Shown: positions 52,501-58,837 of the stretch, in pieces
Position numbering within the stretch: position 1 is the stretch's first letter
Layout of the letters: every line of letters begins with the position of its first letter
Origin: the human T2T-CHM13v2.0 reference genome, Homo sapiens
Length of the DNA: 64,000 nucleotides
NCBI RefSeq assembly: GCF_009914755.1
Contig: NC_060931.1
Strand: one strand, 5' to 3'
The notes under the pieces: generated by a model
The model's database searches: none
Seen by the model: the letters and a program-made list of their open reading frames with translations, nothing else
Told to the model about the DNA's origin: nothing
Position numbers and translations under genes: made by a program

Positions 52501-54787
52501 AGGTAACGCAGCCGCCATCCTGCCCTACTCCCACCCCACAGAGTCTGGAGGTAGTGCTGTACTACAAGGCCAGCCAGAGGAAATTAGATGGACTAGCAAA
52601 AGAGGAGGAAAAGAAAGAGGAGATGGAGGAGGAAAAAAAGGAAGTGAAAGAGGAAGCAAAGGAGCAGTGTGGGGATGAGCTAGTTGCTGAGCCAGCAGAT
52701 CCTGAGGAAGCTAAATCCACAGAAGATCAGGAGGAAAATGAAGAGGACAAAGAGGAAGAGGAGAAGGAAGAAGACAGTGAAGAGGAGGAGGATGACGCCG
52801 ACTCTTCCCTTGAAAGTCCCGAAGAAAATAACCCCCTCAGACTTTCCGAGAGCAAAAAGGTAACCAGAGCCAAAGCCTAGATCAAGTGGGAAGTGGGGTC
52901 TTGGGCTCAGATAACTCCGAGTTAATGGGTGGCCCTGCCAAGGATGGATATCTCCAGGAGTGGAGGCCTCGCGCTCTAAGGCACAACCCTTCGGGGAGGT
53001 GGAGATGCAGAAGTGGGAGATGAGAGCAGTCTGTCTGCACGAAATCATGGGCTCAGCCCCGTTTGCTGTGGAACCACCTCACAATGACCACCTTTTCTGG
53101 GAACCAGCGTGGGGTCTCTGGAGTCCTTTCATTTACGTAGTAGCCTTTGTTACCTTCCTTATGTCGGGAGTGTTCCCTCATCCCTCTTTTGGCACTGCAG
53201 GAAGGACATTGACAGTGTGAAGTCTACTTCAGGCCATTTCTGTCGGTCTGGGCAAGTCACTCAGTCCAGTTTTCCTATGGTGCCCTGTTAGGTTTAACCT
53301 TTGTTGTTGCTGTTAGGGGTGTGTCAGGGGATAATCTCTTCTTTGTAGGCTCATGTTGCCCCCTGGATTCTGTATATCACAGGACATGAAGGTGGGGCCT
53401 GGAAGTGATCAAGAGTGATAGTGAAAATATTTCACATCTGTACAGTAGGAGCATAGACTAGTCCAAGGAGACCATCCCTAGCCTTAACCCTTCAGTTGCT
53501 AGATCATTGAGAGGTTGGGGTGGAGGTATCCTGGGATATATATGCCAGAATGCCAGAGGTAACTTACCAACAATATAGAAGTACTTCCATATTTTAATAA
53601 CTGGTACGTCTCTGCAGGTATGTAGCAACTGAATTCTTGCCCTGGACTTAACTCAGGGCTCAGAGTCCCTACAGAGTTAGAGTATTTCCTGTGTAAGTCC
53701 TCAGCTTACATTACAGGTTCTTTCTGTTCTAAACAGAGGTAAAGAAAAAAAGCCTCTTGTGGTGGGATTATCCAGTCAACTCTGAGGATATCTGGAATTT
53801 CCAGCAATTTGGTCTTCAGCACTGGCTAAGGATCCAGTGTGCAGTGCTCTGCTTACCTTGTGCCAGGGGACCATTACCTAAGATGTGGAAAGTCGGAACC
53901 ACTGCAGCCCCTCCCACTATCATGTTTCCTTGAGCTCATCATATTCCACCACGTGCTGGTTCAGAGCCTCACAGATGTCTTTACCTTCGGTGCCACATTT
54001 CTAAAGCTAGACCTGATTTTTCTACTTCAAATATATTCTATGTTTCTATATATGGAGAGATCCCTTTGCCCCGTGGGTCCTGCGTCTTTTGCAGGCAGCT
54101 CTAGGGCATGTGTATTACCACCTTGCAAAATCGGTTTCTCTCTGGAAGATTGTTGCAGTGAAAGAACTAGCCCTTCTCCATTGTCAGTTTGTTTCGGTGC
54201 ATGTTGTCTTACAATGATATCATTAGATTCCTAGGGGATCTAAGGGACCAGAGCCCAAAATACTAAGAAACTTAATGGAAAGCAGGCTAGAACAAAGGGA
54301 CAGGTGACCTGGTAGAAGACTGGCTCTTCCTAGAGTGACCTAGGAAAAGTCACAAGAAAGGTCTAGATGCAGATACCTCCTGCTTGACAGGATATGAGAG
54401 GTATGTGACGAGACAGAAAGAAAACTGGACTCACCGCCTGACTTGGACCTAGCTGCTGCTTAACCCATTCAATTTTGCAATTCCTGCAGACTGCCGGTGG
54501 AAAGAACCAAGGCCCAGGCAGCAGAAAAGACATGCAACTGCTCTAGCTTACCTGTTTTTTAACCTCTTGATTCCTTTCTCTTTTCCCTTTGTTTTCTCAT
54601 CTTCATTATCTGTTGGATCCATGCGTTTATGTCTCACATCTCCTGGTCTCTCCTCGTGCTTCTTTCTCATTTTGGTGTGTTGCAGTCATCCCCTACCCCC
54701 AATCCCCCCATCTTCTCCTTGCCTCTTGTAGGCCTGGTGGTCATCTCGGCTTTGCTCTGGTGCTGGTGGGCTGAGACGTCGTCCTAA
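28566..54787 (+). CDS. CCDC136: Coiled-coil domain-containing protein 136, 1154-aa spliced ORF (MQAMEGEVLL...WCWWAETSS)
   Basis: 17 coding exons joined at GT/AG sum to 3465 nt with an open frame; long heptad coiled coil with a C-terminal TM segment. Confidence 0.95.
29745..30064 (-). mobile_element. Alu
   Basis: Alu consensus. Confidence 0.9.
30502..30756 (+). CDS. CCDC136: CCDC136 exon 3 (poly-Glu)
   Basis: EVLLPALY-E12-V-E5-QV...DSLELQ; canonical splice sites. Confidence 0.95.
30528..30581 (+). repeat. (GAR)n coding poly-glutamate tract
   Basis: E12-V-E5. Confidence 0.9.
30848..30922 (+). CDS. CCDC136: CCDC136 exon 4
   Basis: [24 protein letters not shown]; preceded by a 91-nt intron. 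Confidence 0.95.
32130..32352 (-). mobile_element. Truncated Alu
   Basis: Alu consensus. Confidence 0.85.
32897..33194 (-). mobile_element. AluYa5
   Basis: All Ya5 diagnostic positions present; CpGs intact; TSD cagaatatat. Confidence 0.9.
34076..34370 (-). mobile_element. AluY
   Basis: TSD gaaaatagggttc. Confidence 0.9.
34408..34703 (-). mobile_element. Alu (AluS)
   Basis: TSD ctcctcagtag. Confidence 0.9.
34735..35135 (+). promoter_or_regulatory. Intronic CpG island, candidate internal CCDC136 promoter
   Basis: Non-repeat CpG-dense segment between Alus; NRF1-like CGCGCACGCG, TTCCG, GC box; ATG at 34930 followed by a GTGAGT donor. Confidence 0.7.
35177..35466 (-). mobile_element. Alu
   Basis: Alu consensus. 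Confidence 0.9.
35969..36270 (+). mobile_element. Alu (AluJ) with expanded middle A tract
   Basis: Alu consensus. Confidence 0.88.
37195..37510 (-). mobile_element. Alu (AluS)
   Basis: TSD tatcatca(g/a)ttta. Confidence 0.9.
38101..38424 (+). CDS. CCDC136: CCDC136 exon 5
   Basis: [19 protein letters not shown]...DYSGLQ; 324 nt, phase 1-1. Confidence 0.95.
38563..38700 (+). mobile_element. FLAM / Alu left monomer
   Basis: Alu left-arm consensus. Confidence 0.8.
40085..41030. mobile_element. Alu cluster: FLAM (-) 40085-40220, AluJ (+) 40287-40590, AluS (-) 40730-41030
   Basis: Alu consensus; TSDs acataattctt and aagaattc. Confidence 0.88.
41565..41676 (+). CDS. CCDC136: CCDC136 exon 6
   Basis: [17 protein letters not shown]...LESER; NAGNAG acceptor cagaag. 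Confidence 0.93.
42274..42439 (+). CDS. CCDC136: CCDC136 exon 7
   Basis: [12 protein letters not shown]...MHGMKNK|gtaggg. Confidence 0.93.
42676..42816 (+). CDS. CCDC136: CCDC136 exon 8
   Basis: [14 protein letters not shown]...SHSVTQ; phase 0-0. Confidence 0.93.
43152..43310 (+). CDS. CCDC136: CCDC136 exon 9
   Basis: [19 protein letters not shown]...NQSEK; phase 0-0. Confidence 0.93.
43603..43773 (+). CDS. CCDC136: CCDC136 exon 10
   Basis: [14 protein letters not shown]...KESNEK; phase 0-0. Confidence 0.92.
44275..44460 (+). CDS. CCDC136: CCDC136 exon 11
   Basis: [21 protein letters not shown]...KCANK; phase 0-0. Confidence 0.93.
44958..45252 (-). mobile_element. Alu (AluS)
   Basis: Alu consensus. 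Confidence 0.9.
46365..46559 (+). CDS. CCDC136: CCDC136 exon 12
   Basis: [21 protein letters not shown]...SGLLLK; phase 0-0. Confidence 0.93.
47054..47281 (+). CDS. CCDC136: CCDC136 exon 13
   Basis: [24 protein letters not shown]...CNRNK; phase 0-0. Confidence 0.93.
48728..49240 (+). CDS. CCDC136: CCDC136 exon 14 (Ser/Thr/Tyr repeat)
   Basis: [20 protein letters not shown]...EPEDME; 513 nt, phase 0-0. Confidence 0.93.
48923..49213 (+). repeat. Degenerate 42-bp (14-aa) coding tandem repeat, about 7 copies
   Basis: K(S/T)(Y/F) recurs every 14 residues; AAGAGYTAY recurs every 42 nt. Confidence 0.85.
49636..49857 (+). CDS. CCDC136: CCDC136 exon 15
   Basis: [26 protein letters not shown]...NDKNE; phase 0-0. 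Confidence 0.93.
50627..50920 (+). mobile_element. Alu (AluS)
   Basis: TSD aaaaagaatt. Confidence 0.9.
51018..51322 (-). mobile_element. Alu (AluS)
   Basis: Alu consensus. Confidence 0.9.
51566..51847 (+). CDS. CCDC136: CCDC136 exon 16
   Basis: [21 protein letters not shown]...LETRK; phase 0-0. Confidence 0.93.
52542..52859 (+). CDS. CCDC136: CCDC136 exon 17 (acidic)
   Basis: [14 protein letters not shown]...Glu-rich...LSESKK; phase 0-0. Confidence 0.93.
54686..54787 (+). CDS. CCDC136: CCDC136 exon 18: tail anchor A and stop (exon ends 54792)
   Basis: tgcag|[38 protein letters not shown]|gtact. Confidence 0.9.
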
Positions 54788-58726: not shown

Positions 58727-58837
58727 AACATGTTTGGGTTGTGGAAGCCTATGGTATTCTTGGCTATTGCAGCTGTGGCTCTGTATGTGTTACCCAACAT
58801 GCGACAGCAGGAGTCAGAGTTCTGCCTCATGGAGTGA
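58727..58837 (+). CDS. CCDC136: CCDC136 last exon: tail anchor B (coding when exon 18 is skipped)
   Basis: ccacag|NMFGLWKPMVFLAIAAVALYVLPNMRQQESEFCLME*; phase 0. Confidence 0.85.
   Translation, partial: NMFGLWKPMVFLAIAAVALYVLPNMRQQESEFCLME

What the first reader, a model, noticed from the sequence alone, without database searches (positions are those of the whole stretch)
54686..58837. CCDC136 has an SLMAP-like tail-anchor switch: one cassette exon chooses between two C-terminal membrane anchors
Seen: after phase-0 exon 17, exon 54686-54792 encodes [33 protein letters not shown]. Its stop lies only 5 nt before the last junction, so it should escape NMD. If it is skipped, the last exon is read in frame as a second hydrophobic tail, NMFGLWKPMVFLAIAAVALYVLPNMRQQESEFCLME*. 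Known (from memory): SLMAP uses the same layout, with tails of the ...LFLAFLFWCFGPLW and ...WMPMLAALVAVTAIVLYVPGL types that direct it to different organelles (ER versus mitochondria). The W-x-PM...A..LYV.P and LLWC motifs match those tails. Inference: CCDC136 keeps an ancestral splice-controlled organelle-targeting switch.
Basis: partly seen in the sequence, partly recalled or inferred. Interest (0 to 1): 0.8.

Follow-up and report, generated by a model that had tools for sequence, protein, structure and literature searches.

The report
CCDC136 alternative tail anchors, SLMAP-type
Human CCDC136 can end in either of two different membrane anchors depending on whether one small exon is spliced in, the same arrangement as in its sister gene SLMAP; both protein forms are already in databases, but whether they go to different organelles has not been tested.

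Summary
After the phase-0 exon 52542-52859, the cassette exon 54686-54792 gives a 33-residue hydrophobic tail. Its stop lies 5 nt before the donor. Skipping that exon reads the last exon as a 36-residue second hydrophobic tail.

I found the SLMAP tail exons in the same genome, and they have the same layout: a phase-0 upstream exon, a TA1 cassette whose stop lies 6 nt before the donor, then a terminal TA2 exon.

Sequence evidence:
- Tail B resembles TA2 well above chance (7 of 5000 shuffles; 0 of 57 natural hydrophobic windows).
- Tail B also resembles the tail of a third paralogue on chr1.
- Tail A resembles TA1 only marginally (306 of 5000; 2-4 of 57).

Paralogy is supported by a reciprocal coiled-coil exon hit, by filamin genes lying downstream of both CCDC136 and SLMAP, and by a shared Pfam label.

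Both tails are strongly conserved in mammals.

Little of this is new. The tail swap is UniProt isoform 4, and CCDC136 is called a SLMAP paralogue in print. The tail-by-tail correspondence did not appear in my searches. Different organelle targeting remains an inference.

The parts
52542..52859 (+). Last exon common to both long forms (exon 16 of NM_022742.5). It ends in phase 0 with ...LRLSESKK and has a GT donor.
54686..54792 (+). Cassette exon (exon 17 of 18), 107 nt. It encodes tail A, 33 residues, with an uncharged run [23 protein letters not shown] and C-flank ETSS. The donor is CAG|gtactg.
   Evidence: In 71 database proteins carrying this tail, 22 of 33 columns are invariant, and a platypus protein shares the last 25 residues.
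54785..54787 (+). TAA stop of tail A, 5 nt before the exon's donor. By the established 50-55 nt rule it is not expected to trigger nonsense-mediated decay.
   Evidence: The NMD rule is established knowledge and was not tested here.
58727..58837 (+). Coding part of the last exon when the cassette is skipped. It encodes tail B, 36 residues plus a TGA stop. The 16-residue uncharged run PMVFLAIAAVALYVLP lies between K7 and R26, followed by the acidic end QQESEFCLME.
   Evidence: 125 database proteins carry it; 118 have a 36-residue tail with no indel.
58727..59058 (+). Last exon (exon 18). It is 3'UTR in the cassette-included transcript and coding plus 3'UTR in the skipped one.
   Evidence: Hub table.
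56059..56161 (+). Exon of other transcripts that opens with AAG TCT TAA. Joined after 52859 it would give ...SESKKKS*, a protein with no anchor.
   Evidence: GT sits at 56160-56161, so the annotated end may be two bases off. I did not see the transcript itself.
38101..38424 (+). Exon 4, a coiled-coil segment that is the reciprocal best match of a SLMAP exon (C3:57952762-57953025). This is evidence of paralogy.
   Evidence: 37% identity over 94 residues, E 3.7e-7; 39% over 88 residues, E 6.4e-7; the only non-self match at E <= 1.

Best explanation
CCDC136 makes one coiled-coil body with either of two C-terminal tail anchors.

Shown from sequence: the choice is made by one cassette exon. If 54686-54792 is spliced in, translation ends inside it with tail A. 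If it is skipped, the same phase-0 junction runs into the last exon and gives tail B.

Inferred with good support: this is the same device as the TA1 cassette and TA2 terminal exon of the paralogue SLMAP. It was inherited from the gene that existed before SLMAP and CCDC136 separated. Tail B, SLMAP TA2 and the single tail of the chr1 paralogue (TRAF3IP3 by map position, name recalled) are one homologous tail type. Tail A and TA1 are probably the second type.

Inferred only: the two tails deliver the scaffold to different membranes. Tail A has a long hydrophobic span and no basic flank, which suggests the ER and secretory route, including the acrosome membrane where the protein is annotated. Tail B has a short span bracketed by K and R, which suggests a different set of membranes. 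That set possibly includes the mitochondrial outer membrane, as for SLMAP TA2.

My odds: about 0.95 that the switch is real and both forms are made; about 0.85 that tail B is homologous to TA2; about 0.7 that tail A is homologous to TA1; about 0.5 that the tails differ in destination.
For: Layout:
- CCDC136 has a phase-0 exon, then a 107-nt cassette with its stop 5 nt before a GTAC donor, a 3934-nt intron, and a terminal exon entered in phase 0.
- SLMAP's upstream exon ends ...REKGNN|GTAAGT in phase 0. Its TA1 cassette has the stop 6 nt before a GTAC donor, then a 1361-nt intron and the terminal TA2 exon. Database proteins show both joins: P0239 has ...GNN|PSILQ and P0244 has ...GNN|KPWPW.

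Sequence (BLOSUM62 local scores):
- Tail B against TA2 scores 41. This is reached by 7 of 5000 shuffles and by 0 of 57 natural hydrophobic windows.
- Tail B against the chr1 tail scores 40 (2 of 5000; 0 of 57).
- The cross pairs are at chance: tail A against TA2, 2133 of 5000; tail B against TA1, 1628 of 5000.
- Of the 9 positions shared by tail B and TA2 (W6, P8, M9, A13, A16, L19, Y20, V21, P23), 6 are invariant among the 28 distinct mammalian tail-B variants (W6, P8, A13, A16, Y20, P23).

Paralogy:
- Reciprocal exon hits.
- Filamin-repeat gene clusters lie just downstream on the same strand of both genes.
- IRF-domain genes lie near CCDC136 and near the chr1 paralogue.
- The precomputed label PF28341 ('CCDC136_middle') is on CCDC136 forms with either tail and on all 49 listed SLMAP proteins.
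- PMC11484480 calls TRAF3IP3 and CCDC136 'SLMAP paralogues' (passage).

Both forms exist:
- UniProt isoform 4 is exactly this swap (quoted in PMC12101322).
- A human 'unnamed protein product' of 474 residues joins ...QNDKNE to tail B.
- Many RefSeq models in mammals carry either tail.

Constraint:
- 118 of 125 tail-B proteins have a 36-residue tail with no indel.
- Three open frames that run past the stop (P0001, P0005, P0098) fall out of frame with one another within about 10 codons after it.
- Tail A's last 25 residues are identical in human and platypus.

Function by analogy: Byers 2009 found that TA1 targets the ER and TA2 targets the ER plus mitochondria, decided by hydrophobicity (abstract and sections). 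The 18-residue Eisenberg maxima run the same way in both genes: tail A 0.80 against tail B 0.71, and TA1 0.90 against TA2 0.77.
Against: - Tail A against TA1 is not significant on sequence (score 32; 306 of 5000 shuffles; 4 of 57 and 2 of 57 natural windows).
- Neither tail was found outside mammals. All 112 species-named rows of the 120 listed are mammals, and so are all 68 named rows of 71. The whole-library search gave only 13 hits, all of CCDC136 or SLMAP tail type and without species names. These searches need close similarity, so this is weak evidence.
- The chr1 paralogue shows no TA1-like cassette in 14.8 kb upstream of its last exon, using a screen that recovers both known cassettes.
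- Peak hydrophobicity of the two CCDC136 tails is the same (9-residue Eisenberg maxima 0.93 and 0.92).
- Tail B's C-flank is net -2 where TA2's is +1. This argues against simply copying SLMAP's mitochondrial rule.
- I have no read counts for either junction and no localisation data.
Confidence: 0.6

Rival explanations
1. Both tails are real, but they are interchangeable anchors that reach the same membranes. On this reading the splice choice has no targeting meaning. It may matter only for mRNA features, since the cassette turns the last exon into 3'UTR, or it may simply be tolerated.
For: - Byers 2009: both SLMAP tails reach the ER (abstract).
- The CCDC136 tails have equal peak hydrophobicity (0.93 and 0.92).
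- Tail B lacks the net positive C-flank that often goes with mitochondrial tail anchors (that general rule is mentioned in PMC2712456).
Against: - Each tail is conserved in sequence far beyond what a generic hydrophobic anchor needs. Tail A has 22 of 33 invariant columns and 25 residues identical to platypus. Tail B has 12 of 35 invariant columns, and its acidic end E-x-E-F-C-L-M-E is kept in most placental variants.
- The two tails differ in span length (23 against 16 uncharged residues) and in flanks.
Confidence: 0.25
2. Tail B and TA2 are homologous, but the cassette tail A arose separately in the mammalian CCDC136 lineage. Its likeness to SLMAP TA1 is then convergence. Any second anchor placed upstream of the last exon needs its own stop close to the donor to escape decay.
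For: - Tail A against TA1 is marginal.
- Tail A was found only in mammals.
- The chr1 paralogue has no such cassette.
Against: - The cassettes share position, phase 0 entry, a stop 5 or 6 nt from a GTAC donor, and L-[LF]-W-C at the same end of the span preceded by G-L.
- Tail A was already fixed in its present form before monotremes split off.
- The word-based searches could not have seen a diverged non-mammalian tail.
Confidence: 0.2
3. The tail B frame is an accidental open frame in the 3'UTR, and the skipped transcript is splicing noise.
For: In the selected RefSeq transcript this stretch is annotated as 3'UTR (hub table).
Against: - 118 of 125 proteins have an indel-free 36-residue tail, while the sequence after the stop shifts frame between species.
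- There is significant similarity to the terminal coding exons of two paralogues.
- The form is a UniProt isoform and a human cDNA-type product.
Confidence: 0.03

Closest known systems
SLMAP alternative tail anchors TA1 (cassette exon XXIII) and TA2 (terminal exon XXIV) (Byers et al. 2009, PMC2712456)
   Same: - Paralogous gene.
- A phase-0 upstream exon.
- A cassette exon with its own anchor and a stop 5-6 nt before the donor.
- A terminal exon with the second anchor.
- The terminal tails are homologous.
- The cassette tail is the longer and more hydrophobic span; the terminal tail is bracketed by K and R.
   Different: - CCDC136 tail B has a conserved 13-residue acidic C-flank (net -2) in place of TA2's GLARASP-type end (+1).
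- Tail A ends in ETSS, whereas TA1 ends at the span.
- The sequence match of the cassette tails is weak.
- CCDC136 lacks the FHA domain that many of the listed SLMAP proteins carry (PF00498 on SLMAP rows only).
- Targeting was tested for SLMAP and not for CCDC136.
TRAF3IP3 / T3JAM, the chr1 SLMAP paralogue (name assigned from recalled map position next to an IRF gene; called a SLMAP paralogue in PMC6323126 and PMC11484480)
   Same: - The terminal exon has 30 residues and is entered in phase 0.
- It encodes RQCGRWLPVLMVVIAAALAVFLANKDNLMI*, a TA2/tail-B-type anchor sharing G-x-W-x-P and I-A-A with tail B (score 40; 2 of 5000 shuffles).
   Different: No TA1-like cassette was found in 14.8 kb upstream, so there is apparently one anchor and no switch.
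Other alternatively spliced tail anchors, for example the DMPK A and C isoforms (recalled; DMPK A and C are only listed as tail-anchored proteins in PMC2712456)
   Same: Alternative C-terminal exons give one protein body different membrane anchors.
   Different: The genes and exon arrangement are unrelated. I did not examine them here.

Membership tests
SLMAP-type dual tail-anchor switch | Each isoform ends in a single hydrophobic span within about 35 residues of the C-terminus. | tested here: met
   Uncharged runs of 23 residues (tail A) and 16 residues (tail B). The 15-residue Kyte-Doolittle maxima are 2.52 and 2.50, against 2.59 and 2.65 for TA1 and TA2.
SLMAP-type dual tail-anchor switch | A cassette exon with its own stop lies upstream of a terminal exon that holds the second anchor, and both are entered in phase 0 from the same exon. 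| tested here: met
   CCDC136. SLMAP. The stops lie 5 nt and 6 nt before the donors.
SLMAP-type dual tail-anchor switch | The terminal tail is homologous to TA2. | tested here: met
   Score 41, reached by 7 of 5000 shuffles and 0 of 57 natural hydrophobic windows. Nine identical positions.
SLMAP-type dual tail-anchor switch | The cassette tail is homologous to TA1. | tested here: inconclusive
   Score 32, reached by 306 of 5000 shuffles and by 4 of 57 and 2 of 57 natural windows. The shared L-[LF]-W-C and G-L motifs are visible.
SLMAP-type dual tail-anchor switch | Both mRNA or protein forms exist. | tested here: met
   This is database evidence only: the UniProt isoform 4 text, human protein P0008, and many mammalian RefSeq models. 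I had no junction read counts.
SLMAP-type dual tail-anchor switch | The two anchors give different organelle targeting. | not testable with these tools
   Only physicochemical comparison was possible.
SLMAP / TRAF3IP3 / CCDC136 paralogue group | Homologous coiled-coil body. | tested here: met
   Reciprocal best exon matches, E 3.7e-7 and 6.4e-7.
SLMAP / TRAF3IP3 / CCDC136 paralogue group | Conserved neighbourhood, as expected of whole-genome duplicates. | tested here: met
   A filamin-repeat cluster lies downstream on the same strand of both CCDC136 and SLMAP. IRF-domain genes lie near CCDC136 and near the chr1 paralogue. The neighbours' gene names are recalled.
Pfam PF28341 (CCDC136_middle, Pfam 38.1) | A match to the family model. 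| tested here: inconclusive
   I saw only precomputed labels. They are on CCDC136 forms with either tail and on 49 of 49 listed SLMAP proteins, and the name comes. The model is not in the local library, so I could not see which residues it covers. Short open frames holding only tail B carry the label (P0002-P0007), while one holding only tail A (P0121) does not.
STRIPAK accessory subunit (the role of SLMAP and TRAF3IP3) | Binding to SIKE1/FGFR1OP2 through the coiled coil. | not tested
   One paper holds both 'CCDC136' and 'STRIPAK'. It reports only that the paralogues appear in centrosome-cilium interactomes.

The most novel reading that the evidence does not exclude
The two-anchor splice switch is older than the vertebrate genome duplications and has been kept in two duplicates, SLMAP and CCDC136, for several hundred million years. 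In CCDC136 it decides which organelle receives the scaffold in spermatids and in cone and bipolar cells: the acrosome and ER route, or another membrane such as the mitochondrial outer membrane. The near-invariant tail A span (25 residues identical from human to platypus) and the conserved acidic cysteine-bearing end of tail B would then be specific docking elements for partners within or beyond the membrane, not mere anchors.
Probability: 0.35. Interest if true: 0.55.

Novelty: new member of a known kind. Interest (0 to 1): 0.35.

Why it matters
CCDC136 is needed for acrosome formation and male fertility in mice. I saw this only as reviews citing Geng 2016. It is also reported as enriched in S-cones. 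Its molecular role is obscure.

If the tail decides the membrane, then knockouts, antibodies and expression constructs that ignore the tail may mix two different proteins. The isoform used would need to be stated.

For the SLMAP field, a second gene with the same switch would show that the two-anchor design is a conserved property of the family and not a quirk of one gene. It would also give a natural set of sequences for asking what in a tail anchor sets its destination.

The gain is modest. The isoforms and the paralogy are already recorded, and the functional claim is still untested.

Tried and rejected
- Searching the genome with the 36-residue tail B as a protein found only itself and one chance hit. 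SLMAP was reached instead with a degenerate motif pattern. That pattern's total hit count was at control level (272 against 246). The one hit inside the recalled SLMAP region proved to be the TA2 exon.
- The local Pfam scan of the four tails gave only sub-threshold chance hits, SecD-TM1 and DUF3188. PF28341 is not in the local library.
- An alignment cannot be used to search this genome.
- The whole-library profile search with tail B plus TA2 gave only 13 hits at E <= 0.001, all of CCDC136 or SLMAP tail type and without species names. It said nothing about non-mammals.
- The chr1 paralogue was not found with the SLMAP protein, with CCDC136 exon 4, or with a late SLMAP exon. I located it from the recalled neighbourhood of an IRF gene. 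I confirmed it by four collinear tblastn matches to SLMAP, of which the best had E 1.7e-5 and the weakest E 1.4.
- The NAG6 paper cited for isoform 4 is not held.
- Rfam found nothing in 52000-60000. Open frames on the other strand are unremarkable.
- The protein atlas gave only weak leads (scores of 0.83 or less). I used it only for the name of PF28341.
- Literature. 'CCDC136' with 'SLMAP' gave 5 papers. With 'tail-anchored' it gave 2. With 'isoform' and 'transmembrane' it gave 21. With 'alternative splicing' and 'exon' it gave 31, of which 25 were listed. With 'STRIPAK' it gave 1. I read CCDC136 passages in six of these papers (PMC11484480, PMC8658024, PMC12101322, PMC12766463, PMC12327943, PMC3233386). 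None treats the two tails as a targeting switch or aligns them with SLMAP's. The other papers I saw only as search listings. I opened no supplements.
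Full report
**1. The observation**

I rebuilt the coding sequence from the exon table. The coding parts up to 52859 total 3363 nt, so exon 52542-52859 ends in phase 0.

- With exon 54686-54792 (107 nt, AG...GT) the protein has 1154 residues. It ends ...[38 protein letters not shown].
- Without that exon the protein has 1157 residues. 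It ends ...SESKK|NMFGLWKPMVFLAIAAVALYVLPNMRQQESEFCLME.

The first stop is TAA at 54785-54787, then TGCAG, then the GT donor. The second stop is TGA at 58835-58837.

Every junction from 42439 onward is in phase 0. This explains why database isoforms attach either tail to the ends of exons 7, 10, 14 or 16.

**2. The same device in SLMAP, read from the same genome**

A motif pattern derived from tail B hit C3:57967678. The pattern as a whole was at control level (272 hits against 246), so only this one place matters.

Reading 30 kb there gave:
- a terminal exon entered in phase 0 that encodes KPWPWMPMLAALVAVTAIVLYVPGLARASP* (30 residues);
- 1361 nt upstream, a cassette exon encoding PSILQPVPAVFIGLFLAFLFWCFGPLW* (27 residues), with AGAAAG between the TAG stop and a GTAC donor.

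The upstream exon ends ...REKGNN|GTAAGT in phase 0. Stored proteins show both joins: P0239 to the cassette and P0244 to the terminal exon. The lengths agree with Byers et al. 2009, who give TA1 as 27 residues from the alternatively spliced exon XXIII and TA2 as 30 residues from exon XXIV (PMC2712456, sections read).

The two genes therefore share the architecture exon for exon. The stops lie 5 and 6 nt before the donors.

**3. Are the tails homologous?**

I used BLOSUM62 local scores with 5000 composition-preserving shuffles.

| Pair | Score | Shuffles reaching it |
|---|---|---|
| Tail B vs TA2 | 41 | 7 of 5000 |
| Tail A vs TA1 | 32 | 306 of 5000 |
| Tail A vs TA2 | 23 | 2133 of 5000 |
| Tail B vs TA1 | 22 | 1628 of 5000 |

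I also scored against 57 natural hydrophobic windows taken from six-frame translations of all DNA in hand. Tail B against TA2 was exceeded by 0 of 57. Tail A against TA1 was reached by 4 of 57 and 2 of 57.

The pairing is specific, and the B-TA2 link is solid. The A-TA1 link is only suggestive as sequence. It rests on position, phase, the stop-to-donor spacing, and the shared G-L...L-[LF]-W-C.

**4. A third paralogue**

I located the chr1 relative from the recalled neighbourhood of an IRF gene. Four collinear tblastn matches to SLMAP residues 145-371 support it, with the best at E 1.7e-5 and the weakest at E 1.4.

Its last exon is entered in phase 0 behind a strong pyrimidine tract. It encodes RQCGRWLPVLMVVIAAALAVFLANKDNLMI* (30 residues). 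This scores 40 against tail B (2 of 5000 shuffles; 0 of 57 windows) and 34 against TA2 (28 of 5000; 0 of 57).

A screen for phase-any cassettes with a hydrophobic span and a stop near a GT ranks the true cassette highest by hydrophobicity among the candidates in both CCDC136 and SLMAP. It finds nothing comparable in 14.8 kb upstream of the chr1 last exon. All three genes therefore share the terminal tail type, and only two have the cassette.

**5. Paralogy**

- SLMAP protein P0239 against the genome hits, outside its own locus, only CCDC136 exon 4 (37% over 94 residues, E 3.7e-7).
- The reverse search returns only the corresponding SLMAP exon (39% over 88 residues, E 6.4e-7).
- Filamin-repeat clusters lie just downstream on the same strand of both genes, at C7:130151462-130171434 and C3:58139115-58211204.
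- IRF-domain exons lie about 120 kb past CCDC136 and about 15 kb past the chr1 gene.
- The neighbours' names (FLNC, FLNB, IRF5, IRF6) are from memory.
- In print, PMC11484480 calls TRAF3IP3 and CCDC136/NAG6 'SLMAP paralogues' (passage).
- In the large protein database, the precomputed Pfam label PF28341 sits on CCDC136 proteins with either tail and on all 49 listed SLMAP proteins. One search gives its name as CCDC136_middle (Pfam 38.1). The model is not in the local library, so I could not see what it covers.
- Open frames that contain only tail B carry the label, and one that contains only tail A does not. This suggests the model runs into the TA2-type tail.

**6. Are both forms real and constrained?**

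PMC12101322 quotes UniProt Q96JN2 isoform 4 as exactly this swap of residues 1122-1154. A human 'unnamed protein product' (P0008, 474 residues) joins ...QNDKNE, the end of exon 14, to tail B.

The tail B query found 175 proteins, of which 120 were listed. All 112 rows with a species name are mammals. The tail A query found 71 proteins, and all 68 named rows are mammals, platypus included.

Among the stored proteins:
- 125 carry tail B. Of these, 118 have a 36-residue tail, 2 have 35, 1 is a fragment and 4 run past the stop. There are 28 distinct variants with 12 invariant columns.
- 71 carry tail A. Of these, 70 have 33 residues. There are 21 variants with 22 invariant columns.

Six of the nine positions that tail B shares with TA2 (W6, P8, A13, A16, Y20, P23) are among tail B's invariant columns.

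Three open frames that run past the tail B stop fall out of frame with each other within about ten codons. The 36 codons before the stop never do.

The last 25 residues of tail A are identical in human and platypus. A monotreme-like tail B (P0247) is more diverged.

I could not obtain DNA of other species, so there is no dN/dS. I could not see non-mammalian orthologues. The whole-library search returned only 13 hits.

**7. How it probably works**

Shown: one splice decision selects the C-terminus. Both C-termini are single-span tails.

Inferred: the cassette form escapes decay because its stop is 5 nt from the last junction (the established 50-55 nt rule).

Inferred by analogy: the tails differ in destination. 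For SLMAP, both tails reach the ER and TA2 also reaches mitochondria. The lower hydrophobicity of TA2 is decisive there (PMC2712456 abstract and section 9).

My Eisenberg 9-residue maximum for TA1, 1.03, reproduces the paper's figure.

In CCDC136 the 18-residue maxima run the same way: tail A 0.80 against tail B 0.71, compared with TA1 0.90 against TA2 0.77. The 9-residue peaks, however, are equal (0.93 and 0.92).

Tail B keeps the K...R bracket of TA2 but adds a conserved acidic end, giving a net C-flank charge of -2 against +1. I therefore expect different destinations (odds about 0.5) but do not predict mitochondria with any confidence.

CCDC136 is listed as a tail-anchored protein of the acrosome membrane (PMC8658024 table).

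**8. What is known and what is new**

Already known:
- the two protein ends (UniProt and RefSeq models);
- the tail-anchor class;
- the paralogy with SLMAP.

Five literature searches pairing 'CCDC136' with other terms returned 5, 2, 21, 31 and 1 papers. I read CCDC136 passages in six of those papers and saw the rest only as listings. In none did I find:
- the statement that the CCDC136 tails correspond one to one to SLMAP TA1 and TA2;
- the point that the exon design is shared;
- the point that the chr1 paralogue has only the terminal type.

The NAG6 paper behind isoform 4 and the 2000 JBC paper on the SLMAP 3' gene structure are not held (for the former; I did not request the latter). I opened no supplements.

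**9. Verdict**

This is a correct and careful reading of a real feature. It is a second member of a known kind of switch, most of whose parts are already catalogued. Its functional meaning is open and easily testable.

Noticed in passing
window 56059-56161: An exon of other transcripts starts AAG TCT TAA. Joined after 52859 it would give a protein ending ...SESKKKS* with no membrane anchor. Placed after the cassette it would leave the cassette's stop 108 nt from the last junction. The annotated end is followed by GA, while GT sits at 56160-56161.
   Followed up: partly
window 42274-52859: All exon junctions from 42439 onward are phase 0. Database isoforms join either tail directly to the ends of exons 7, 10, 14 and 16. 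The coiled-coil body is therefore modular, and both anchors are combined with long and short bodies.
   Followed up: partly
G000:C7:130151462-130171434, C3:58139115-58211204, C7:130255053-130258931, C1:209043153-209048159: Filamin-repeat genes follow both CCDC136 and SLMAP on the same strand. IRF-domain genes lie near CCDC136 and near the chr1 paralogue. This is the pattern expected of blocks duplicated together. The gene names are recalled, not given by a tool.
   Followed up: partly
L037:8824-8913 (G000:C1:209028824-209028913): The terminal exon of the chr1 SLMAP paralogue encodes a 30-residue TA2/tail-B-type anchor. No TA1-like cassette was found in the 14.8 kb before it.
   Followed up: yes
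window 3604-59058 (CALU, OPN1SW, CCDC136): In a table of genes up-regulated in cone-only Nrl-/- mouse retina, Ccdc136 (12.1-fold and 8.5-fold for two transcripts) and its neighbour Calu (8.8-fold) both appear (PMC3233386). CCDC136 is cited as S-cone enriched (PMC12327943). The S-opsin gene lies between them in this window, so they may share a regulatory domain.
   Followed up: no
window 58838-59058: The 3'UTR after the tail B stop is well conserved between mammals near its end. Open frames from three sources end in the same ...LLPCVRTWVPCN just before the AATAAA region. It still carries frame-shifting indels, unlike the 36 codons before the stop.
   Followed up: partly
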